In this document: positions 50,426 to 60,592 of the stretch, one piece after another | Layout of the letters: each line of letters opens with the position of its first letter | Numbering within the stretch: the stretch's first letter is position 1 | Assembly (NCBI GenBank): GCA_018060845.1 | Contig: JAGOVG010000001.1 | Coordinates: forward strand, 86,070 to 150,069 | Direction of reading: 5' to 3' | DNA length: 64,000 bases | DNA from: Candidatus Woesebacteria bacterium | GTDB lineage: Bacteria; Patescibacteriota; Microgenomatia; UBA1400; UBA12108 | Notes under the pieces: generated by a model | What the model saw: the letters and a program-made list of their open reading frames with translations, nothing else | Told to the model about the DNA's origin: nothing | The model's database searches: none | Position numbers and translations under genes: made by a program

Positions 50426-51772
50426 ATGGATGCTACCTCAGTATGGAGAGCGGTATTAACCGATCTAGAACTTACATTGTCTAAGACGTATTTTGCTGGA
50501 TATATCAAACCTTTATCGCTCATCTCATTAGAACAAGAGGGTGGTCGCGTAACCGCAACCATATTGTCTCCCACCAAATACCACGTCCAGATGATGGATG
50601 AAAAATATGGGAAGCACGTAATAAAGGCGATTGAGAGAGTAGTTAACAGCCCATGCACCATTAAGTACGAAATAGGCAAGGAGGGGGGAATGGAGCAGAC
50701 TGGCTCTATGCCACTATTTCAGCCGGCTCCCAAAGTAAGTGCTCCGATAGGGAGCGGATCACACAACCTTAATCCAAGGTTAACTTTTGACACTTATATT
50801 GTTGGTTCTTCGAACAACTTTGCATATGCTGCAGCACAAGGAGCGGCCAAGAGTCCTGGAACGAGATATAACCCTTTGTTTATTTATGGCGGAGTAGGAC
50901 TTGGTAAGACCCACCTTATGCATGCCATAGGTCACGCCGTGTACGCAGACCATCCAGACTGGGACATTATGTATATCTCGGCAGAGACCTTTGGGAGCGA
51001 TTTGATTGCGAGCTTACAGAACAAGAGAACGGCGGCGTTTAAAAAGAAGTATCGTGCGCCAAACCTACTACTAATCGATGACATTCAGTTTATTGCCGGC
51101 AAAGAATATATACAAGAAGAGTTTTTTCACACCTTTAACGAGTTATATATGTCTCAAAGACAGATTGTCCTCACATCTGACAGACCCCCACAAGAGATCT
51201 CACGACTAGAAGAGCGGCTCTCCTCCCGATTTATGGGTGGACTCATGGTGGATGTACAAAGCCCTGACTTTGAGACAAGAACTGCGATTTTGACGCAAAA
51301 ATGTATTGTGCTAGGACTCGAGGTTTCGCCAGACCTAATTGCACTAGTTGCCGAGAAGGCGGTGGGTAATATCCGTGAGCTAGAGGGAACTCTCCAAGCA
51401 ATAATTGCCAAGTCACATTCAGAAAAGAGACCAATAGATCAAGACCTGATTAGAGAAAACTTTGGAGCATCGTCTGAGCGGCGAAATCACCGGATTAGGC
51501 CACAATCAGTAATAAATAAGACTGCTCAATATTTTAGTTACAAAGTAACAGAGTTAACGGGGGCGAGCCGCAAGGCACCGCTGACAGCGGCAAGGCACAC
51601 TGCGATGTATTTGTTATATGAAGAGTTGTCACTACCATACGTGCAAATAGGGGAGCTGTTTGGCGGGAGAGATCATACAACCATAATCCACGCGGTTGAA
51701 AAGATTAAAGAAGAGTTAAAAACTAATCCTCAACTCTCAAAGACTCTGGCAGACATAAGACATGATTTATGA
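50426..51772 (+). CDS. dnaA: Chromosomal replication initiator protein DnaA
   Basis: AAA+ Walker [14 protein letters not shown], Walker [11 protein letters not shown]-terminal DnaA-box-binding HTH ([11 protein letters not shown]). Confidence 0.93.
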
Positions 51773-51775
51773 GGC

Positions 51776-52010
51776 CCGCAAGTTATCCACATCAGTTGTG
51801 GATAAGTATGAGGAAAAGTAAGGGAAAAGATGAGGATAACTTGAGGATAATGGTGGATAAGTCGGTTATCAACAATAACCCTTTACTTATCCCCAAACCT
51901 ATCCGAGCGGTTATCCACACTACTAGCAGATAGGTATCCACTTATCCACTGACCCTACTATAATTACTAATTAATATTAAAGTGAATAGTCTATAGTACA
52001 TATAAGGGGA
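51776..52010. promoter_or_regulatory. oriC: DnaA-box cluster and AT-rich unwinding element between dnaA and dnaN
   Basis: TTATCCACA at 51784 and 51911. TGTGGATAA at 51797, forming a palindromic pair with the 51784 box. Near-consensus boxes TGGATAAG, TTATCCCCA, GTATCCACTTATCCACT. AT-rich stretch 51961-52005. Confidence 0.6.
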
Positions 52011-52013
52011 AAA

Positions 52014-53117
52014 ATGAAAATAGAAATCTTACAAGAAGAGTTATTAAAAGGCATGGCCGTTGTAATGAGAGCGGTTTCGAACCGTACCCAGCTACCAGTT
52101 TTATCTTCTATTAGGATTGAGGCTAAGCCAACGGAGATCGTTCTTTCGGCGACTGACCTAGAGATAGGGATCAGGTTAGTCATATCTGCAAAAGTTGAGG
52201 AAGTAGGAGTTTTTGCAGTACCTGCAAAAACCTTTAGCGAACTACTCTCTACTCTCTCGCCAGGCAAACTCTCGATGGAGCTAAAAGAGATGGTATTGAC
52301 TATAAAGTCAGGAAGTTTTAAGGGCAAGATAACGACTGTCGACGCATCCGAGTTTCCGGTGCTACCCACAATGAAAGAATCTTTGATTGAAATGTCTTCG
52401 AGTGAGTTATCTCAGGGTATTTTGAATGTGGGCTTTGCTAGCGCCAAGGATTCCCTACGTCCCGTCTTAACTGGCGTGCTTATGGAGGTCTCACAGAGTC
52501 TGCGATTGGTAGCGACCGATGGATTCCGCCTAGCGGTAGCTACGGTCAAAATAAAAGGCTCTACAGCGACCCAGGGACTATCACTACTAGTTCCGGCACG
52601 AGCACTTTTTGAGTGTGGCAAAATTATCAAAGAGGGAGTGATTAAAATAGGATACCTACCAGAATCTAAGCAGGTATTGTTTGAAGGGGAGCAGTTGTTG
52701 TTTATTACTCAGATAATAGAGGGCAACTTTCCTGACTACAATAAAATCTTGCCCAAAGAGTTTGTGGAGAGGATAACTCTATCCAGAGAAGAGCTTCTGG
52801 GTGCTGTAAAAACAGCGCTTGTTTTTGCGAGAGATAACTCAAATATGATGAAGTGGACGGTTACACGTGGCAAGCTATCGGTAGCTGCTAGCTCGACAGG
52901 AAGTGGGGAGGGCTCGATTGAGGTGGGAGCCAAGACGGAGGGTGAGGAATCGCTAGAGGTTATTTTTAACGCAAAGTATGTGATGGATTATCTACAGCTA
53001 TTGAGCACAGAGTCGATCTGGATTGGGCTTGGTGGTAAGCTGGCACCAGGAATGATTGCGGAGAGTGACGCGGGTCGCGAAAATACTTTTTATGTAGTGA
53101 TGCCGATAAATGCGTGA
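52014..53117 (+). CDS. dnaN: DNA polymerase III beta subunit (sliding clamp)
   Basis: 367 aa, three-domain clamp, MKIEILQEELLKG...VMPINA. Confidence 0.9.
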   Translation: MKIEILQEELLKGMAVVMRAVSNRTQLPVLSSIRIEAKPTEIVLSATDLEIGIRLVISAKVEEVGVFAVPAKTFSELLSTLSPGKLSMELKEMVLTIKSGSFKGKITTVDASEFPVLPTMKESLIEMSSSELSQGILNVGFASAKDSLRPVLTGVLMEVSQSLRLVATDGFRLAVATVKIKGSTATQGLSLLVPARALFECGKIIKEGVIKIGYLPESKQVLFEGEQLLFITQIIEGNFPDYNKILPKEFVERITLSREELLGAVKTALVFARDNSNMMKWTVTRGKLSVAASSTGSGEGSIEVGAKTEGEESLEVIFNAKYVMDYLQLLSTESIWIGLGGKLAPGMIAESDAGRENTFYVVMPINA

Positions 53118-53168
53118 TACTGGACAATCGGAAAACTCGGGGTGTCGGCTGGTCGGCGATTCAGTAGA

Positions 53169-55052
53169 TCAGATAGTTGGTTTATCAGGTGGAGTCGGTG
53201 GAGTATTGAGTTTTTGGGCGAGGGTAACCTGAGCTTGTTTGATTGCCTGAGCCTCGGCTTCTTCTTTTTTACGAAGAGTCTCTCTAGGATCGGTGGTAAT
53301 GAGCGCGTGTTCTTCGGGGGACGCGACGACTCGCATGGCAACGTGGTTTTGGCCGGCGAAGAATAGAGACTCCCCCACCTCGGCAGTGAGGAGTAGGTGA
53401 CGCTCACCCTGTGAGAGATAGAAGACGTTAGCTAGTTTTTCAATAGCACTAGTGCTTTGTTTCATTAAAACCTGAATACTGGCGTTACTAACAATAGCCT
53501 TCCCGTGATCGTCTTTTAAGAAGTCTTCGACATCTTGAGTAATGGTAGTTAGACCCAAGAAATATTTGCGAGCCCGTTTGGCAATGCCATAGAGGAAAGT
53601 GGCGGAGTCCTCGTTTTTCATAAGATACCAGGCTTCATCAACCACCAAGAGACGACGCTTTAAATCTCTTTTTACCTTGGTCCAGATATAGTCGAGAATA
53701 ATGAAGATGGCGGTAGGGCGGAGCTCATCCTGAAGGTTTTTAATACCAAAGACAGTTAGCTGTTTGCCAAAGTCCACATTACTTTTTTGGGAGAAAATAC
53801 CCTGAAAACTACCCTTAACATATTTTTCGAGGCGGTCGGCTAGGCCGCGAGCTACCGCTTCTTCCATTCCAACTAGAGCTTTATAGAGATCTTCCATCAG
53901 GGGTGGTTCATTTTTATGAGTAGCAGGATCACGATTTATGCCTTTCATTTGATAGGTCATGACAAGAGCGCGGTCGAGTAGGGCCTCTTCTTGGGCAGTC
54001 ACGTCGCCGAGCATGATTTTGAGTAGTGAGTGGAGCGAGATAATTTTCATAGCCAGTTCGTTTTCGTCAGGCTCGGCAAGTTGAGGGAGCTCAAAGGGGT
54101 TAATACGATTGGGGCTAGTAAAACTAAAGTCGATATAGGTACCGTTTACGGTCTGGGACATTTTACGGTACTCGTCTTCGGGGTCGATAATGATTACCTC
54201 GGTCTCAAATAGTAGTGAGCGGAGGATCTCTAGCTTGACCATGTAACTTTTACCAGAGCCAGACTTAGCAAAGACAACCATGTTGGCATTCTCGAGACTA
54301 AAACGGTCAAAAACCACAAGACTATCGTTGTGTTCGTTGATCCCGTACATAATGCCTTCGTTGGCGGTTAACTCACTGCTAGTAAATGGGAAGGTGGTCG
54401 CTAGGCTGGTCGTGTCCATGTTGCGGTTGATTTTGAGGAAGTCTTTACCCATAGGGAGAGTGGTTTTGAAGCCGTCTTCGATCTGGAGAGTGGCGGTCTT
54501 GGCTACGATAAGGAGAGCTCCTAGAGTTGATTTAATATGATTGGTAACTTTGTCGAGCGCGTCTTTTTTGTCGTCGCGAATAGTAATGTAGAGACCAAAC
54601 TGGAAGAAACGTTCGGCGCCTTTGGCGAGTTGTTCTTGGAGACTACGTGCATCTTCTAGTTTGACCTGGGTATCAATATTGATAATCTTGCCTCGTTGAA
54701 TATCACCTTGTAGCTCCGCCTCCATCTCGGCAATCTTGCGTCTTAGATCCTCAATAACCCCCTTGCCATCGACGGGGTAAATAAACATTGAAATGGAGAG
54801 GGAGTGGGGGAAGTTGATGAGGGGAGAGAGCCAGTTGGCGTTGACGAAGCGGGGGTAGCCGGCGACAAAGAGAGTGCGGTAGTAGGTGTCGTTAATCTTG
54901 ACGTCTGACCAGTCAACTTCGATTGCCTCTGGTGCAATTATATCTTTGACGTTGGTGGTGCCAGTTGAGAGGACTTGGACGGCGGCAGGAACTCCGGAAT
55001 TAGCGTCTTCGGTCGGTTTCTTTTTGCCAGCAAAAGGAAAGGGCAAGTTCAT
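53169..55052 (-). CDS. VirB4/TrsE-like type IV secretion (conjugal transfer) ATPase
   Basis: Walker A FAKSGSGKSY, Walker B LLVVDEAWYLM, IIIDPEDEY, Gram-positive VirB4-like architecture, 627 aa. Confidence 0.75.
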   Translation of the reverse strand: MNLPFPFAGKKKPTEDANSGVPAAVQVLSTGTTNVKDIIAPEAIEVDWSDVKINDTYYRTLFVAGYPRFVNANWLSPLINFPHSLSISMFIYPVDGKGVIEDLRRKIAEMEAELQGDIQRGKIINIDTQVKLEDARSLQEQLAKGAERFFQFGLYITIRDDKKDALDKVTNHIKSTLGALLIVAKTATLQIEDGFKTTLPMGKDFLKINRNMDTTSLATTFPFTSSELTANEGIMYGINEHNDSLVVFDRFSLENANMVVFAKSGSGKSYMVKLEILRSLLFETEVIIIDPEDEYRKMSQTVNGTYIDFSFTSPNRINPFELPQLAEPDENELAMKIISLHSLLKIMLGDVTAQEEALLDRALVMTYQMKGINRDPATHKNEPPLMEDLYKALVGMEEAVARGLADRLEKYVKGSFQGIFSQKSNVDFGKQLTVFGIKNLQDELRPTAIFIILDYIWTKVKRDLKRRLLVVDEAWYLMKNEDSATFLYGIAKRARKYFLGLTTITQDVEDFLKDDHGKAIVSNASIQVLMKQSTSAIEKLANVFYLSQGERHLLLTAEVGESLFFAGQNHVAMRVVASPEEHALITTDPRETLRKKEEAEAQAIKQAQVTLAQKLNTPPTPPDKPTI

Positions 55053-55221
55053 ATGGATTTAGTATAACGCATTAATTAGACTGAGTGTCGCGATTTTGCA
55101 GTCCTCACAGCTATCTGACGTATCAGAGGAGACGCTCCGGGCTGAAAATCATCGCCACTCAGTCTTTGTAAATAACTTTCTTAGCAATACTTAGAGAGAT
55201 GGCGGTAGTTATGTATGGCCA

Positions 55222-55266
55222 GGCCTGCGCTAAATTTTTCTTTGTGAAACTACGTCTACGCCGACA
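55222..55266. repeat. Conserved ~45-bp intergenic element, copy A (upstream of the VirB4-like gene)
   Basis: GGCCTGCGCTAAATTTTTCTTTGTGAAACTACGTCTACGCCGACAC is about 85 percent identical to copy B. Confidence 0.55.
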
Positions 55267-55274
55267 CACAAAAA

Positions 55275-55913
55275 CTATTTAGCAATATTTGGGGCGACGA
55301 CAGGTGTTTCGTAATCTGAGGCGGTCGTGAATTTTTGACCTTTAACGGTTGAATTATAGTAACCGTGGAAGAGTTTCATGAGGTTCTGGCTATTTAACTG
55401 CTGGGCGGTTAAACCAATCCTAGTTAACTGCTTGATAATATGGTCTCTTTTTGGCTCGAGGTCGGCCTTGGCGCGACTTAGGAGTTCTTCGGTTACCTCA
55501 ACTTTGCCTGACAGTGTGACCATTTGGTAGGAGACGATGATATAGAATTTTTTATCGAGCACATTTTGCTCTTGGATGGTGGTCTCGATAAAGTTCCTAT
55601 ACTGCGACATGCGGGTTTTCATGGTTTCGTCTTTGAGTTTCTTTTCCTGAGTAACCAGGAGCTCTAGGTAACTACTGATGTCTTTTTTCTCGGATTTGAT
55701 TACCATCTGGACGGGGAAGCTAAGTGAGTTGAGGAGGCCGGCATACGCGTAGATGGTCGCATCCTGTTCTTCTTCGGAGAGGAGACCAAAGTTGATGGCT
55801 GAAGTTTGGATTACGACGCTTATTAGGCCACCGCGGAGGACCACCACATCATCTTGAATGGTTTCGACCTCGAGATGATCTTGGGTTGTTGCGACGATGA
55901 TTGAGTCAGACAT
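55275..55913 (-). CDS. Hypothetical T4SS-associated protein
   Basis: 212-aa ORF between PrgI-like and VirB4-like genes. No recognised motif. Confidence 0.35.
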   Translation of the reverse strand: MSDSIIVATTQDHLEVETIQDDVVVLRGGLISVVIQTSAINFGLLSEEEQDATIYAYAGLLNSLSFPVQMVIKSEKKDISSYLELLVTQEKKLKDETMKTRMSQYRNFIETTIQEQNVLDKKFYIIVSYQMVTLSGKVEVTEELLSRAKADLEPKRDHIIKQLTRIGLTAQQLNSQNLMKLFHGYYNSTVKGQKFTTASDYETPVVAPNIAK

Positions 55914-56008
55914 CTTTTTAGTATATCAGCTTCGGTTCGGTGCGTTTCACGCGAAAAAGCGGTCTGACTGCGTCTGGTGTCGCAGCGACCTCGAGTTCGG
56001 CCTACCCG

Positions 56009-56053
56009 GCCTGCACTAAATTTTTCTTAGTGAAATCGCGCCTCGCCGGCCCT
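56009..56053. repeat. Conserved ~45-bp intergenic element, copy B (upstream of 55275..55913)
   Basis: GGCCTGCACTAAATTTTTCTTAGTGAAATCGCGCCTCGCCGGCCC. Confidence 0.55.
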
Positions 56054-56057
56054 GCTA

Positions 56058-57080
56058 TTATCCTGTGGCCTGTATCTCGAAAGGTTGGATAATAGTGTCG
56101 TTGATAACTAGTTGCTGAGCGGGGAAGGTGTGACCATCTGACTCGACTTCGAGGCGGTAGGTCCCAGGAGATAGAGGGGTGCTAGTCGCAAACTGGCCGA
56201 GTGCGTTGGTTTTCATGGCGCGGGCTGGGACACCAGTTGAATCTAGTACCTGAACTATCGCACCCTCGACCAACTTGCCTGCTGGGTCGGTTGTGATCCC
56301 AACAATAAGATTGGGTGAGCGAGGTGGGACGGGGAGATTAATTGATTTGAGTTTGGTGGTGGCTTTGGTTTGGGGAGCTGGTGTGGCTGCTATGGGCGCG
56401 GCAGAAAAGATGAGATTGTCTGGAATTGACGACTCTTGTGGTTTGTCTGACTTTACCACTGGTTTGTCGACGACGGTCGGCTGGACTGGGGGAATCACGA
56501 CAGGAGTAGCTTTGGTCGGGGGCGGGGCAACTGTGTCTTCTACTGCTTTGAGTTTGCGTACAGTGACACCAGGCTTGTCAAAAGTAATTTCTGGTTTAGG
56601 GGTCGAATTAACTGGGGCAGATGGCATAGTAGTAAAAATGGAATTAAGGGCTTTGAGTTGCGAATTTTCTCCTTCGCTATAATCGGAGGGTGCTATAGTA
56701 GTGGATTTGATTGTGGGAGCCTTGATGGTTTTGGTGACTGTGTTGGTTGGGGCTATCTGATGAGCCGTAAAGGTAAAAATGTTAGGGATTTTGTTAGTTT
56801 TTTTCCAGGTGAAACGAGTGGGTTTGTAGATAGCGTGTACAAAATTAATAATCCATTGATCGAGTGGGCGGTCTTCGATGGGGAAGAAAGCTAGGGCGAT
56901 ACCAAAAAAAACGGAGAGGAGAATCAGAGGTGCTTTAAAGATAAAGAGTAGGTTGCTACTGTAGAAAAGAAATGCGAGCACTAGTCCGGATGCTAGTTCG
57001 AGAAACTGTTTGAGAGTCATGTCTCCAACAAGACGGAACTGATACTGAGTGACGTTTTGGGGCACTGGATGCTGGTTCAT
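56058..57080 (-). CDS. PrgI-family (VirB3-like) membrane protein with C-terminal carboxypeptidase-regulatory-like beta domain
   Basis: N-terminus PVPQNVTQYQFRLVGDMTLKQFLEL plus two TM helices, typical of PrgI/VirB3 of Gram-positive T4SS. Pro/Thr-rich linker. C-terminal GAIVQVLDSTGVPA...GTYRLEV. Confidence 0.5.
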   Translation of the reverse strand: MNQHPVPQNVTQYQFRLVGDMTLKQFLELASGLVLAFLFYSSNLLFIFKAPLILLSVFFGIALAFFPIEDRPLDQWIINFVHAIYKPTRFTWKKTNKIPNIFTFTAHQIAPTNTVTKTIKAPTIKSTTIAPSDYSEGENSQLKALNSIFTTMPSAPVNSTPKPEITFDKPGVTVRKLKAVEDTVAPPPTKATPVVIPPVQPTVVDKPVVKSDKPQESSIPDNLIFSAAPIAATPAPQTKATTKLKSINLPVPPRSPNLIVGITTDPAGKLVEGAIVQVLDSTGVPARAMKTNALGQFATSTPLSPGTYRLEVESDGHTFPAQQLVINDTIIQPFEIQATG

Positions 57081-57125
57081 TAATACAGTATAAAGTACCG
57101 AGTAAAAAGTACCTAGTGTGCGAAG

Positions 57126-57731
57126 TTAGTTGGAGAAGGAGTAAGTGTGGCTATCTGGGTCTAGTCCATTTTCTTTGACCCAGTCCCTTAAAGAGTTGAT
57201 GATCTCGCTTCGTTCTTCGACCCCCTCTTTAAGAGTGATTTCGAATGCCATTGGGGATTTGTACATAACAGTAAAACCTGGTGCTTCGTAGGGTATTTTG
57301 GCGGCCAGAGGGTAATCGCGCGCAATCTCCTCTCCCACCTCTTGGGCGTGACGAGGATCGCTTTGTTGTGGTTTAACTGTATAGGTGAGAGATGCGATTG
57401 GATTATTTTGATAACTTATATTTAGTAAATACTGTGTGTTGATAAGGAGGTATTTTTTGGACTTAAGTATTACGCTACCATTCGATTTAAGAGATATATC
57501 CCAATCTTCTTCGGGAATGGAGTTCACTACGAGCTCGTCTGGGTTGATATCCTTATCAAACCTGAGTTGTATCTCGTCAAAATAATTAATAGAAGATCGA
57601 TCTTTGGGGGTGCTGTTTAGTAGAGATGGGGCGGGTGGGGTGGGGCGATAGAAAAGAGAAAATAGAAGTGTGGCTAGAGCTACAACACCAAGAGTAATTA
57701 GAGTTAATTTGTTGGTCAAAATTTTGTACAT
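57126..57731 (-). CDS. Membrane-anchored hypothetical protein (possible VirB8-like component)
   Basis: N-terminal TM helix plus about 170-aa periplasmic/extracellular domain. The VirB8 role is assigned from position only. Confidence 0.35.
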   Translation of the reverse strand: MYKILTNKLTLITLGVVALATLLFSLFYRPTPPAPSLLNSTPKDRSSINYFDEIQLRFDKDINPDELVVNSIPEEDWDISLKSNGSVILKSKKYLLINTQYLLNISYQNNPIASLTYTVKPQQSDPRHAQEVGEEIARDYPLAAKIPYEAPGFTVMYKSPMAFEITLKEGVEERSEIINSLRDWVKENGLDPDSHTYSFSN

Positions 57732-57745
57732 AGGTATATTCTAGC

Positions 57746-60592
57746 TTAGATTTTTTTTAGACACCCCGCGATTTTACTACTTAACCAAGTGCCGCTACCT
57801 GGGCCTCTTACAACGCCTGGACCTGCTCCGTTTGCATCGGATACTTGAGAGGTTGCACCACCATTCTTGATAAAGATTCCAGTGTGACCCCAAGTGCCAG
57901 TAGTATCGACAAAGAAGTCTCCTGGTGAGCAGCTGCCGACACCAAGAACAGGCTTATACCCGCTAGGAGGGTTAGATAATAGAGTTTTTGCATCTCCAAA
58001 GCCTGTGCCAGTGCCTCCGTTTGCAACATCGATCGCGACAATAAAGCCCACACACTGTAGGACACTATAGTTGGTGGCTGAATATTGTAGCGCTGCTAGG
58101 GAGCTCTGGGCCAATGTACTCGCCAACATACACTGCCAAGTAGACCCCTGAGCATTGCTAGCAGTTAATGGATTAATACTACATTTACTTAATATTTCGG
58201 CGATACAGGCTGCTGTTTGGATGCGAGAGTTGTTCTGACCTCCTCCCTCGCCTGAGTTACAGAGAATATTGCCGATAAATTCGCCCAGGCCTGAGTCTAA
58301 GTTTATACTAACATCGAGTCGAAAAGTGTTTTTTATGTTATTTTGAGTAAAACTGGTTATAAATGGCAAGCTCACACTTAGGACAAAGGCAACAAGCAAA
58401 TTGATGAATGCTCCAGAGATCAGTCCTGATACTGTAGTAAAAAATCCCAATATTGCCGCTGGAATACCAAGTAGTACTGCACCGATCGCAGCACCACCAA
58501 GTATTATGCTTTCACGAAAGTTGCTGTTTGATATAAACTCTTTTAGTAGCCCCCAACCTAGTTTGAATAGTTCAATGACTGTTTGAATAGCAAAAACCAC
58601 TGTTAATGCAATGCCCACACCCGACAGTGCAGAGAATAGTGCCAAGACAGTCTTTGACCCGGCGCGCGCTAGAGATCTCCCGCCCAATTTTAGTAGTAGT
58701 CTTGTGACAGTTCTTTTTACAGAAACTCCTGAATACTTAAAAACGGATGTAAGTCCGACCTTGGCTATCCCCCACTTGATTGCAGAACTCCAGGCTGCTT
58801 TGCGGATGTGTGCGAGAGCACCGTTATAGGTATATCCACCGAGCTCGTACTGTCTAAATGACCAGTTAACGAGAGAGCCAAAACCCGTACTAGTTTTTGT
58901 ACTAGATATTATGGATTTTACAGATGATTTTTTAAACTGTTTGAGCTGATCGGTAACCCATGGAAAAATCTTAAAAAGAGGGATCTTGGTGCCAGGAATA
59001 CTAAAATTAGTCGAAAACTCGTCCCACTTACTATATATAAACTCATGAAGTTTTTTGCCAGTAACAATGCTTTCAAAGTCAAACCACTTTTCCCAGCCCA
59101 ACCTCTGTGCCTCCGTTAATCCAGAGCGTAGTTCTAATACAAATCTTCCAAACTGAGTCCTTTTAAGTAGACGAGCTTGTTTTGGGGTTAGGTTCTTATA
59201 ATAATATTCGTAGTCGCTAAGCGATCTAATTTTTCTTATTTTTTGTATGTTGGGAGAAGGAGAATTTAACTCATGTTCTTCGAGTTGTTTGAGAGTGGTG
59301 AGTCTGCTATTACCACTTAGGTTGTTGGCTTGGTTATATTCGTTAATGAGCGAATTAGTCTCAAAACCTAGTTTTAGCTTTGATTTAAATGAATAAAATG
59401 GGTTTATTCCTAGTTTAATTAGTTTTAACTCAGCTCTAGTTAGTGCGTGACCGTTGACCAATAGAGACATCTCATTCTGTCTATATTCAATTACTGAATC
59501 GAGGCCTGTCTCTCTTAAGCTTTTTTTAATTAACAATAAAGTAGCAGCGTCTAGATTTTTTAACCCAAGTTTTTTTGAGACTTTTTTTGATGCCAGTATT
59601 AGTAGTTGGTCTGATGTAAGTTGTTGGGCAGAGGACATCGTGATCTCTGTAAGAATGCTCTCAGAGATAAGATCTCGTTCTTTTTGGCTAAGGTTGGGTG
59701 GGAGCGCTGACTTGATTTCTGATAGGAGAGCTTGTTGTCCAGGGATAAAATCGGTACTACTAGTGGATGCTGCAACCTGAGCTCTTTTATACTCAGAGAG
59801 GGGGGTAGAACTGTTGTCAAAGTATCCTACCTTAATCCTGTTAACATAATTTCTGACTAGTGTTCCGGCTTGTCTGTCATTAATAAAATTGAGAAGGCCC
59901 GATGCATCTGGATTTTCTTCTTTGATTATCTTGAATAGTTCCTTAGTAACTGCAAAGTCCCTTCTTTCGTCACTATCACCAACCGAACCGGCTGAGTACA
60001 GCCTATCAAAATTTTTACAGATGATTTGAGCAAGCAAAGTTTTCGTTAGATTGTGTTGATTTTGATCAAGGCCATTGGGAACTAGTGTGCTTAGAACATT
60101 ACCAGGTACACCAGATTGTGAATACCGAAGTAATTTAAAATAGAGCCGATTATACTCATCGAACGCCTTGCCGGTATCAAATCTAGAAGGTTGAGCTGAA
60201 TTTATTGACTGCTGTTGCTTGCGATAGGTTTCGAGGTTGCTAATCCTGGTTGCGTTGAGTAGTTTATGTGGATCAGCAATGCGGTTCGAGTATACTAGCT
60301 GTGCATATCTGGCAAACTCAGCAAAACTGTTAATTGATAATAATACTCTTTTATCTTTTGTTAGGAGATTTTCTGTTGAATCTAAATATTCAACTACCAT
60401 TTTTTTGGCTTCGTCGAGAGAGATATACTCTGGGCTTTGAGTAGAGGATGGCAGCTCGACCCCTCTACTACCAGCTGCAATCCTGCCTTGTGTTTCTAGT
60501 CCTGGTAGTAGGTAGTTTTCGATTAGATAGCGATCACAACCACCGTTTATTCGATAATAGCTAGTTTGGTTGAAGAGACTAGGGTTTGCCAT
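57746..60592 (-). CDS. Large T4SS-associated protein: N-terminal soluble domain, VirB6-like multi-TM region, C-terminal CHAP peptidoglycan hydrolase domain
   Basis: 948 aa. Cluster of 5-6 TM helices at aa 640-760. C-terminal CHAP-like Cys/His (LQCVGFIVAID ... GDFFVDTTGTWGHTGIFIKN). Confidence 0.55.
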   Translation of the reverse strand: MANPSLFNQTSYYRINGGCDRYLIENYLLPGLETQGRIAAGSRGVELPSSTQSPEYISLDEAKKMVVEYLDSTENLLTKDKRVLLSINSFAEFARYAQLVYSNRIADPHKLLNATRISNLETYRKQQQSINSAQPSRFDTGKAFDEYNRLYFKLLRYSQSGVPGNVLSTLVPNGLDQNQHNLTKTLLAQIICKNFDRLYSAGSVGDSDERRDFAVTKELFKIIKEENPDASGLLNFINDRQAGTLVRNYVNRIKVGYFDNSSTPLSEYKRAQVAASTSSTDFIPGQQALLSEIKSALPPNLSQKERDLISESILTEITMSSAQQLTSDQLLILASKKVSKKLGLKNLDAATLLLIKKSLRETGLDSVIEYRQNEMSLLVNGHALTRAELKLIKLGINPFYSFKSKLKLGFETNSLINEYNQANNLSGNSRLTTLKQLEEHELNSPSPNIQKIRKIRSLSDYEYYYKNLTPKQARLLKRTQFGRFVLELRSGLTEAQRLGWEKWFDFESIVTGKKLHEFIYSKWDEFSTNFSIPGTKIPLFKIFPWVTDQLKQFKKSSVKSIISSTKTSTGFGSLVNWSFRQYELGGYTYNGALAHIRKAAWSSAIKWGIAKVGLTSVFKYSGVSVKRTVTRLLLKLGGRSLARAGSKTVLALFSALSGVGIALTVVFAIQTVIELFKLGWGLLKEFISNSNFRESIILGGAAIGAVLLGIPAAILGFFTTVSGLISGAFINLLVAFVLSVSLPFITSFTQNNIKNTFRLDVSINLDSGLGEFIGNILCNSGEGGGQNNSRIQTAACIAEILSKCSINPLTASNAQGSTWQCMLASTLAQSSLAALQYSATNYSVLQCVGFIVAIDVANGGTGTGFGDAKTLLSNPPSGYKPVLGVGSCSPGDFFVDTTGTWGHTGIFIKNGGATSQVSDANGAGPGVVRGPGSGTWLSSKIAGCLKKI

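What the first reader, a model, noticed from the sequence alone, without database searches (positions are those of the whole stretch)
55222..56053. Conserved ~45-bp element repeated in two consecutive intergenic gaps of the T4SS-like cluster
GGCCTGCRCTAAATTTTTCTTWGTGAAA...GCCGRC occurs at 55222-55266 and 56009-56053 at about 85 percent identity. Each copy lies in an unusually long spacer (220 and 144 bp), upstream on the minus strand of VirB4 and of the 55275..55913 gene respectively. A repeated element at equivalent positions suggests a shared promoter/operator or an RNA-level regulatory structure coordinating these genes.
Basis: seen in the sequence. Interest (0 to 1): 0.5.

Follow-up and report, generated by a model that had tools for sequence, protein, structure and literature searches.

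The report
Structured spacer element between T4SS genes
The 45-bp repeat is the front end of a roughly 105-130-nt folded element, unmatched in Rfam, that sits between type IV secretion genes in a narrow group of ultra-small (CPR) bacteria; this window holds one intact copy and one broken remnant.

Summary
The repeat is real: two copies in 64 kb, none expected by chance. It is only the 5' part of a longer element. Relatives show a 105-nt core (130-150 nt with outer helices) that fills the spacer from the stop codon of one T4SS gene to the TATACT box of the next. It folds into a long rod (P0-P1-P2) capped by a three-way junction with hairpins P3 and P4.

Across 11 distinct copies, 96% of cells pair and 17 of 36 pairs carry compensatory double changes. 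No shuffle reaches this, and slid controls give 28-47% paired. Window copy B (55927-56055, minus) is intact. Copy A (55217-55274) is a 5' relic that cannot fold.

The element has no Rfam match. It was found only in these two gaps of a narrow Microgenomates clade, at most twice per genome, and many close relatives lack it. Whole gap alleles are swapped by homologous recombination.

The most likely role is a cis-acting RNA at transcript boundaries: the P4 hairpin plus U-run looks like a terminator, clamped by P1/P2, between adjacent leaderless-type transcription units. That function is inferred, not shown. The promoter/operator reading is not supported. Interest is moderate.

The parts
55927..56055 (-). 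Intact copy of the structured element (copy B). It fills the spacer between the PrgI/VirB3-like gene and the TrsD-like gene.
   Evidence: Covariance-model hit of 141 bits, E 3.6e-37, full length 1-129. MFE fold reproduces the consensus architecture.
56030..56042 (-). P1 5' strand (GGCGCG-A-UUUCAC) of copy B.
   Evidence: Alignment columns 14-26 pair with 107-119. 8 of 12 pairs show compensatory double changes.
55939..55950 (-). P1 3' strand (GUGAAA-CGCACC) of copy B.
56021..56026 (-). P2 5' strand (GAAAAA, the A-tract).
   Evidence: Pairs with UUUUUC. Invariant in 10 copies and compensated to GCAAAA/UUUUGC in L049.
55953..55958 (-). P2 3' strand (UUUUUC), which is also the U-run that follows hairpin P4.
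55994..56017 (-). P3a/P3 hairpin (AGU-GCA-GGCC-GGGUA-GGCC-GA-ACU), the most sequence-conserved part of the family.
   Evidence: GGCC/GGCC alternates with GGGC/GCCC between copies, and P3a AGC/GCU alternates with AGU/ACU and ACC/GGU.
55961..55990 (-). P4 hairpin: an invariant base GGUC/GACC plus a hypervariable upper stem (5 bp in this copy, 7 bp in most others) with a short loop. It is followed by GC-UUUUU (terminator-like).
   Evidence: 5 of 7 upper-stem pairs show double changes. Hairpin energy is -15 to -24 kcal/mol.
55217..55274 (-). Copy A, a 5' relic of a gap-A copy. It keeps the outer flank GUUUUUG, the P1 and P2 5' strands and a damaged P3 (GGCC-U-GGCC). The 3' half (P4, P2-3', P1-3') is missing.
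   Evidence: Alignment with full copies. No full covariance-model match. Fold z +0.69. Full gap-A copies with the same 5' flank exist in L007, L015, L025, L031.
55166..55216 (-). Linker of unrelated sequence between the relic and the big hairpin in gap A.
   Evidence: No similarity to the element downstream of P3. Absent in strain L011.
55078..55165 (-). Large hairpin with 27-nt arms, a different spacer cassette ('type 3'). It is the only content of gap A in strains L011 and L026.
   Evidence: Inverted repeat I1. Fold z -3.07. Single copy in the window. Seen in L011A and L026A.
55920..55925 (-). TATACT box 6 nt before the ATG of the TrsD-like gene, a presumed -10 of a leaderless-type promoter.
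   Evidence: Conserved in relatives with spacers of only 19-27 nt.
55061..55066 (-). TATACT box 8 nt before the ATG of the VirB4 gene.
56058..57080 (-). PrgI/VirB3-like gene (340 aa). Its stop codon directly precedes copy B.
   Evidence: Pfam PF12666 PrgI.
55275..55913 (-). TrsD/TraD-like gene (212 aa, PF26593 'TraC-like', homologous to the VirB4 N-terminal domain), lying between the two copies.
53169..55052 (-). VirB4-family ATPase gene (627 aa).
   Evidence: Pfam P-loop_TraG, AAA_10, CagE_TrbE_VirB.

Best explanation
The repeat is the 5' portion of a conserved structured nucleic-acid element on the coding strand of a Patescibacteria-type T4SS cluster. The complete element forms a long rod (outer helices P0, then P1 of 12 bp, then P2 = A-tract:U-tract). 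The rod is capped by a three-way junction carrying a conserved hairpin P3 and a hairpin P4, whose base is invariant and whose upper stem is free to vary as long as it pairs.

It occupies the whole spacer between the stop codon of one gene (VirB3-like or TrsD-like) and the TATACT box next to the ATG of the following gene.

Most likely it works in cis as RNA at the boundary between adjacent, separately promoted (leaderless-type) transcription units:
- P4 followed by GC-UUUUU acts as an intrinsic-terminator-like 3' end for the upstream message.
- In transcripts that read through, the P1/P2 clamp closes the structure into a stable Y-shaped module of about 20 bp of rod. This could protect the upstream mRNA 3' end, be cut by a double-strand RNase, or be bound by a protein.
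- The effect would be to insulate the downstream promoter and set relative levels of the VirB3-like, TrsD-like and VirB4 products.

It is accessory. Lineages lacking it have spacers of 2-37 nt or carry other hairpin cassettes, and whole spacer alleles move between lineages, and between the two gaps, by homologous recombination. In this window only copy B can work this way; copy A is a decaying remnant.

Shown: the element, its boundaries, its structure, its restricted distribution, its dispensability and the recombination tracts. Inferred: that RNA rather than single-stranded DNA is the active form, and the terminator/insulator role.
For: Structure:
- RNAalifold predicts 36 pairs, 11 with compensatory changes, in 10 copies.
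- On the MAFFT alignment, 95.8% of cells pair against 28-47% when partners are slid, and 0/500 shuffles reach the covariation.
- With the divergent L049 copy, 96.2% pair and 17/36 pairs have double changes. Every helix covaries except the GGUC/GACC base of P4.
- Single-sequence folds of whole spacers reproduce the architecture with z = -6.4 to -7.3.

Constraint:
- 4-fold synonymous sites of the adjacent gene differ by 48-64% between most carrier lineages.
- The element keeps 81-84% column identity.
- Variable columns are concentrated in the covarying stems: 27/36 against 8/47, p = 1e-7.

Strand and context:
- Unpaired positions are 65% purine and 34% A on the coding strand.
- All copies lie in the sense orientation directly after a stop codon.
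- TAnAnT boxes 6-8 nt before the ATG are found for 24/59 genes, including the three flanking ones.

Terminator likeness:
- The P4 hairpin folds at -15 to -24 kcal/mol and is followed by GC-UUUUU, with an A-tract partner.

Distribution:
- The exact core occurs only in these gaps among 185,579 species genomes.
- There is one JGI metagenome hit.
- All 25 model hits in 205 kb of related loci are in the two gaps.
- No hits in viral, plasmid or phage collections, and none in Rfam.

Recombination:
- Coding differences between near-identical strains pile up in the 28-50 nt bordering the swapped gap.
Against: - No expression data exist, so transcription through the element, 3' ends at the U-run and any cleavage are unobserved.
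- Wobble statistics do not pick a strand: about 8 G-U cells against 7 A-C cells. A single-stranded-DNA or antisense structure is therefore not excluded.
- P1's 3' strand lies after the U-run and covaries strongly. The functional molecule must therefore extend past the putative termination point, which is odd for a simple terminator.
- The U-run is short (5 U, and 4 in L049) and separated from the stem by GC. The simple terminator scan did not call it.
- A plain terminator would not need the highly conserved P3 hairpin and junction nucleotides.
- Lineages with spacers of 19-27 nt manage without any such element.
- The model-guided alignment used leans towards the structure.
Confidence: 0.45

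Rival explanations
1. It is a functional RNA with a specific partner: a riboswitch-like or protein-binding regulatory domain, a processing ribozyme, or a 3'-UTR-derived small RNA. The conserved three-way junction and P3 loop would be the recognition surface, gating read-through or stability within the VirB3-like/TrsD-like/VirB4 trio.
For: The P3 hairpin, its GCA/GA internal loop, the GGGYA loop and the GGUC/GACC base of P4 are invariant or nearly so, even in the divergent L049 copy. Other helices change freely with compensation. This pattern of conserved junction plus covarying stems is typical of ligand- or protein-binding RNAs. The hairpin plus U-run embedded in the fold could serve as an expression platform.
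Against: No Rfam family matches even at E = 10. The element sits after a stop codon, and the downstream genes appear leaderless, so there is no 5' UTR to control. It is absent from many close relatives with identical protein sets. Its clade is narrow. No alternative mutually exclusive pairing was seen.
Confidence: 0.2
2. It is a miniature selfish DNA element (MITE/PATE/Correia-like). P1 and P0 would be terminal inverted repeats, and the element would insert into, and be lost from, the two spacers, with no host function.
For: Presence and absence alternate among relatives, including strains differing by only 1.4-1.6% in the adjacent gene. The same hairpin variants occur in gap A of one lineage and gap B of another. 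Internal-deletion derivatives and an apparently empty site exist (L030B, L023A, L016A). Short TAA/CTAA-like matches flank some gap-A copies (sequences). Contigs often break inside it.
Against: There are at most two copies per genome, always in these two gaps, across 185,579 species genomes and all fetched loci. The 'terminal repeats' covary instead of keeping a transposase-recognition sequence. Allele swaps take the whole spacer, including stop codon and sometimes the -10 box, plus 28-50 nt of flanking coding sequence. That indicates homologous recombination, not precise insertion. No transposase was seen in the neighbourhood. No hits in phage, plasmid or viral collections.
Confidence: 0.15
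3. It is a DNA-level site acting as single-stranded DNA or a cruciform, such as a nick or recombination site (oriT-like or attC-like) or a feature related to the nearby replication origin.
For: Wobble counts do not favour one strand. Its position right after stop codons, its two-part stem with a bulge and its variable distal structure resemble integron attC architecture. It sits in a T4SS cluster next to dnaN/dnaA.
Against: No attC R-box consensus (GTTRRRY/RYYYAAC) occurs at the ends (sequences). The flanking genes are core, syntenic T4SS genes, not cassettes. Patescibacteria T4SS clusters generally lack a relaxase (PMC12102498). Two tandem oriTs, and absence in close relatives, would be unexpected. 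Purine-rich unpaired positions fit a sense RNA.
Confidence: 0.07
4. It is a shared promoter or operator bound by a transcription factor that co-regulates VirB4 and the TrsD-like gene.
For: The 26-nt 5' core is identical in 9 of 11 copies. It contains an inverted repeat, TTTCAC...GTGAAA. It lies upstream of both genes.
Against: The consensus scan finds no sigma-70-like site in the element. Presumed -10 boxes sit next to the ATGs, at variable distance from the element. In L049 the core sequence differs at many positions, all compensated in the partner strand. Copy A lacks the second half-site. An antisense TAAATT box and an antisense micro-ORF are not conserved.
Confidence: 0.05

Closest known systems
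Intrinsic (Rho-independent) terminators with an upstream A-tract
   Same: A G+C-rich hairpin (P4) followed by a U-run. An A-tract can pair with the U-run (P2). It is placed just after a stop codon.
   Different: The A-tract and hairpin are separated by a second, highly conserved hairpin (P3). A 12-bp helix (P1) and outer helices, which include sequence downstream of the U-run, covary. The U-run is short and offset by GC.
REP/BIME intercistronic palindromes of enterobacteria
   Same: Intergenic and transcribed with the upstream gene. Hairpin-forming, dispensable and variable between strains. Thought to stabilise the upstream mRNA segment (established knowledge, not tested here).
   Different: REPs are simple palindromes of about 35 bp present in hundreds of copies and linked to RAYT transposases. 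This element is a 105-130-nt three-way junction with at most 2 copies per genome, confined to one operon.
Correia elements (Neisseria) and the RUP/BOX elements of pneumococcus
   Same: About 100-150 nt long. The ends pair into a long double-stranded rod when transcribed. Presence/absence polymorphism next to genes. Can alter the expression and processing of neighbours (recalled, not tested).
   Different: Those are dispersed in tens to hundreds of copies, with conserved terminal repeats and TA duplications. Here the copy number is 1-2, the terminal helices covary, and replacement is by homologous recombination of the whole spacer.
Integron attC sites
   Same: They lie directly after stop codons. 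Structure is conserved more than sequence. A two-part stem with a bulge and internal loop is followed by a variable distal structure. The length range is similar.
   Different: There are no R-box consensus sequences and no integrase was seen. The flanking genes are core syntenic T4SS genes. The distal part is highly conserved rather than variable.
Regulatory RNAs of conjugation systems (FinP/traJ; Anti-Q/prgQ of pCF10)
   Same: Small structured RNAs associated with T4SS gene clusters of the Gram-positive/MPF-FATA type.
   Different: Those are antisense RNAs acting at the operon leader. No sequence or structure similarity was found (Rfam negative). This element is sense-oriented and lies between structural genes.

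Membership tests
Any Rfam 15 RNA family | Covariance-model match at or near the family's gathering score | tested here: not met
   No relevant hit in 53000-58000 at E <= 5. No hit at all on the 181-nt slice at E <= 10.
Intrinsic terminator | Stable G+C-rich hairpin downstream of a stop codon | tested here: met
   P4 folds at -15 to -24 kcal/mol in five copies. It lies 60-90 nt after the stop codon.
Intrinsic terminator | U-rich tract immediately 3' of the hairpin | tested here: inconclusive
   GC-UUUUU-C follows P4 (UUUU in L049). The consensus scanner did not call it.
Intrinsic terminator | Transcripts end at the U-tract | not testable with these tools
   No expression data. Covariation of P1's 3' strand downstream of the U-run implies at least some read-through.
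MITE / Correia-like mobile element | Many dispersed copies per genome | tested here: not met
   2 hits in the whole QEVC01 MAG, both in the T4SS gaps, and 3 hits in 185,579 species genomes. 1 full copy in the 64-kb window.
MITE / Correia-like mobile element | Conserved terminal inverted repeats | tested here: inconclusive
   The ends are inverted repeats (P1/P0), but their sequence changes with compensation between copies rather than being conserved.
MITE / Correia-like mobile element | Target-site duplication and precise filled/empty sites | tested here: inconclusive
   TAA/CTAA-like flanks occur in some gap-A copies, and L016A looks like an empty site. However, L030B and L023A are internal deletions, and swaps include flanking coding sequence.
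REP/BIME | Short (about 35 bp) imperfect palindrome in high copy number, with a RAYT transposase in the genome | tested here: not met
   The element is 105-130 nt and branched, with at most 2 copies. RAYT was not searched for.
Integron attC | R''/R' core sites (RYYYAAC ... GTTRRRY) at the ends, with an integrase nearby | tested here: not met
   Read from the sequences: the ends are GCGC.AUUUCAC / GUGRAAUGCGC-CGAACC on one strand and GGTTCG... on the other, with no GTTRRRY. Neighbouring genes are T4SS, dnaN and dnaA.
Sigma-70 promoter / operator | -35/-10 hexamers at fixed distance from the regulated gene, with sequence (not pairing) conserved | tested here: not met
   No promoter-like site in the element. 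The distance to the TATACT box varies. The core sequence is replaced with compensatory changes in L049.

The most novel reading that the evidence does not exclude
The element is a previously undescribed class of functional RNA dedicated to the Patescibacteria T4SS. It would be a three-way-junction domain whose invariant P3/junction surface binds a protein or small molecule, or self-processes, to gate read-through and stoichiometry between the VirB3-like, TrsD-like and VirB4 genes. It would spread between lineages as a recombination-borne regulatory cassette that competes with alternative cassettes at the same two sites.
Probability: 0.2. Interest if true: 0.7.

Novelty: new member of a known kind. 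Interest (0 to 1): 0.5.

Why it matters
The T4SS of Patescibacteria is reported as essential for epibiotic growth in Saccharimonadia, and its regulation is unknown. The 2025 survey of these clusters (PMC12102498) does not mention intergenic elements.

A covariation-supported structured element between the VirB3-like, TrsD-like and VirB4 genes gives a concrete handle on how expression of this machinery is partitioned. This matters in organisms that appear to use leaderless, gene-by-gene promoters.

The locus also shows whole intergenic 'alleles' (at least four unrelated hairpin cassettes) being shuffled by recombination between extremely conserved genes. That offers a tractable natural experiment on regulatory-spacer turnover in uncultivated bacteria.

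The limits are a narrow distribution, dispensability and the absence of expression data, so the significance is moderate.

Tried and rejected
- **Simple hairpin in the 45-mer.** CACTAA/TTAGTG pairs in copy B but is not compensated in copy A. Short-window folds are not significant.
- **Known RNA family.** Rfam is negative twice.
- **Generic dispersed repeat.** Rejected by the genome contigs, metagenome, viral, plasmid and phage searches and by covariance-model searches of the window and 42 loci.
- **Recent selfish insertion, inferred from 'identical protein, different spacer'.** Tempered once synonymous sites proved near-saturated between most lineages. Very close pairs (1.4-1.6% apart) still differ, but through recombination tracts.
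- **Antisense promoter (TAAATT box) and antisense leaderless micro-ORF (VKLRL...).** The start codon is missing in L011B and L040A, the peptide is not conserved, and the box is absent in L049.
- **DnaA box or oriC feature.** The core matches TTWTNCACA at only 7/9 positions by eye and is not conserved in L049. There is no GC-skew switch.
- **Strand assignment from G-U versus A-C counts.** Uninformative, at about 8 against 7.
- **K-turn reading of the P3a/P3 internal loop.** It does not fit the consensus by inspection.
- **MAFFT alignment with L049.** It was one column out of register, so the model-guided alignment was used instead, with its known bias.
- **Extending the family further.** This was not possible, because the caps on genome and metagenome scans and on contig look-ups were reached.

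Full report
**1. The observation**

The window carries a direct repeat at 55219-55249 and 56005-56035, with 28 of 31 positions identical. The degenerate 28-mer and its 20-nt core each match only these two places in 64 kb. The shuffles give 0 matches for the 28-mer and a mean of 0.07, never two, for the 20-mer.

Over the claimed 45 nt the identity is 33/45 (73%), not about 85%. The spacers are 222 and 144 nt.

All neighbouring genes are on the minus strand:
- a CHAP-domain protein of 948 aa
- a 201-aa protein
- a PrgI/VirB3-like protein of 340 aa
- a 212-aa protein (PF26593), homologous to TrsD/TraD and to the N-terminal domain of VirB4 ATPases
- a 627-aa VirB4

dnaN and dnaA follow on the other strand. 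Read on the coding strand, each repeat starts just after the stop codon of the upstream gene.

**2. What the repeat is part of**

The 212-aa protein identifies the source as a Microgenomates/Woesebacteria (CPR) bacterium. I fetched 53 related loci and extracted the two spacers.

For example, the 98% relative L007 has complete copies in both gaps. Window copy B is complete. Window copy A matches only up to the P3 hairpin and then continues into unrelated sequence, followed by a large unrelated hairpin at 55078-55165.

A covariance model built from 10 distinct full copies finds exactly one full match in the window: 55927-56055, minus strand, 141 bits. Across 205 kb of related loci it finds 25 matches, and every one lies in one of the two gaps.

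**3. Structure**

RNAalifold on the MAFFT alignment predicts these helices:
- P1, 12 bp
- P2, GAAAAA/UUUUUC
- P3a plus P3, a hairpin
- P4, with an invariant GGUC/GACC base and a hypervariable 7-bp upper stem

Pair counts give 95.8% of cells paired, against 28-47% when the partners are slid by 1-3 columns. Eleven pairs have changes on both sides, and 0 of 500 shuffles reach the observed covariation.

A more distant lineage (L049-L052, 90% protein identity) carries a divergent member scoring 78.5 bits. In it the supposedly invariant 5' core is different, but every change is compensated: P1 upper UUUUAA/UUAAAA, P2 GCAAAA/UUUUGC, P3a ACC/GGU. Including it gives 96.2% paired and 17 of 36 pairs with double changes (model-guided alignment).

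Independent single-sequence folds of the whole spacers of L007A, L049B and L015A reproduce the architecture. They add outer helices that close the entire spacer, with z = -6.4 to -7.3. The window's copy-A relic has z = +0.69.

G-U and A-C counts are balanced, so wobble pairs do not pick a strand. Unpaired positions are 65% purine and 34% A on the coding strand, compared with 50% purine in paired positions. This fits a sense RNA, but it is soft evidence.

**4. Conservation and population behaviour**

The 212-aa protein is 97-100% identical among carriers, yet 48-64% of 4-fold synonymous sites differ between most carrier lineages. These are therefore old lineages.

The element keeps 81-84% column identity. 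Its substitutions are concentrated in the covarying stems: 27 of 36 columns there, against 8 of 47 in the core (p = 1e-7).

The element is also patchy. On a gene tree, carriers are interleaved with non-carriers. Non-carriers have one of two things:
- spacers of 2-37 nt that retain the TATACT box
- one of at least three other unrelated hairpin-rich cassettes, which also occur in either gap

Strains only 1.4-1.6% apart in the gene can carry different cassettes. In such pairs the few coding differences pile up in the 28-50 nt bordering the swapped gap. This points to replacement of whole spacer alleles by homologous recombination rather than precise transposition.

P4 variants are shared between gap A of one lineage and gap B of another, so the two sites exchange. 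Internal-deletion derivatives (L030B, L023A), an apparently empty site (L016A) and the window's copy-A relic show that decay is frequent.

**5. Distribution**

- The exact 21-nt core occurs in only three places in 185,579 species genomes. Two are the gaps of L007's MAG. The third is a contig labelled Pseudomonadales that is in fact the same Microgenomates locus.
- A two-anchor pattern finds one JGI metagenome contig.
- Viral contigs, plasmids and phages give nothing.
- Rfam gives nothing.
- The 2025 survey of Patescibacteria T4SS clusters describes the dnaA/dnaN neighbourhood and the general lack of relaxases, but no intergenic elements (PMC12102498).

**6. Mechanism**

About 24 of 59 genes in the window have a TAnAnT hexamer 6-8 nt before the ATG, including the three genes around the element. 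The box is retained in relatives with spacers of 19-27 nt. I infer gene-by-gene leaderless-type promoters, so the element lies between transcription units rather than in a 5' UTR.

P4 is a stable hairpin (-15 to -24 kcal/mol) followed by GC-UUUUU, with an upstream A-tract partner. My best reading is a terminator-like 3'-end module. In read-through transcripts it would be clamped by P1/P2 into a stable Y-shaped structure, serving stability, processing or insulation.

This reading does not explain everything. P1's 3' strand lies beyond the U-run yet covaries, and P3 and the junction are conserved beyond what a terminator needs. A specific protein or ligand partner therefore remains a serious rival.

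The other readings are weaker:
- A mobile-element reading is weakened by copy number, covarying ends and the recombination tracts.
- A promoter/operator reading is weakened by the L049 compensations and the variable spacing.
- Antisense-promoter and micro-ORF ideas were tested and dropped.

**7. Verdict**

The repeat is real, but it is one intact and one broken copy of a longer element. That element is a well-supported, previously uncatalogued structured element confined to two spacers of the T4SS cluster in a narrow Microgenomates clade. It is accessory and recombination-shuffled. Its function is inferred only. Interest is moderate.

Noticed in passing
window-wide; e.g. 55061-55066, 55920-55925, 57087-57092 (minus): About 24 of 59 genes carry a TAnAnT hexamer (TATACT, TAAACT, TATAAT and similar) 6-8 nt upstream of the ATG and have no Shine-Dalgarno-like sequence. 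This suggests widespread leaderless transcription with gene-by-gene promoters in this Microgenomates genome.
   Followed up: partly
window 55078-55165; L011 gap A; L026 gap A: A large hairpin with 27-nt arms (fold z -3.07) is a separate spacer cassette. The part available for comparison (about 45 nt, because the L026 contig ends there) is nearly identical between lineages whose synonymous sites are about 45% diverged. It is single-copy in the window and its function is unknown.
   Followed up: partly
L001 gap B, L024/L029 gap A, L045 gap B; L017 both gaps: At least two further unrelated cassettes occupy the same two spacers in relatives. One is about 120 nt, has GCAATTCAG/GACAATCTGA-type direct repeats and brings its own TAAACT box. 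The other is about 80-90 nt and starts GGTATTTTGTATC, present in both gaps of L017. Like the studied element, each can sit in either gap.
   Followed up: partly
window 55275-55913 (minus) and orthologues: The 212-aa TrsD/VirB4-N-domain-like protein is 97-100% identical across lineages whose 4-fold synonymous sites differ by 48-64%. That is unusually strong purifying selection.
   Followed up: partly
L015 (CAZZNJ010000014.1): A contig deposited as 'uncultured Pseudomonadales bacterium' carries the Microgenomates dnaA-dnaN-VirB4-TrsD-like locus with the element. It is probably a mis-binned contig.
   Followed up: yes
L030, L032, L034, L044 (contig ends): Several metagenome contigs end inside the element, at ...ATAGA, ...GACCG or ...GCTTTTT. 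This is consistent with assembly-graph breaks caused by the two-copy repeat or by strain polymorphism.
   Followed up: no
window 1-64000: Cumulative GC skew rises monotonically across the whole window, with no switch near dnaA/dnaN (50426-53117). The skew gives no sign of a replication origin at the canonical position.
   Followed up: no
L003 6642-7511; L049 1-78: One relative has an extra 289-aa gene inserted between the TrsD-like gene and VirB4. Another has a Fic-domain gene just upstream of the PrgI-like gene. Cluster content therefore varies between lineages.
   Followed up: no
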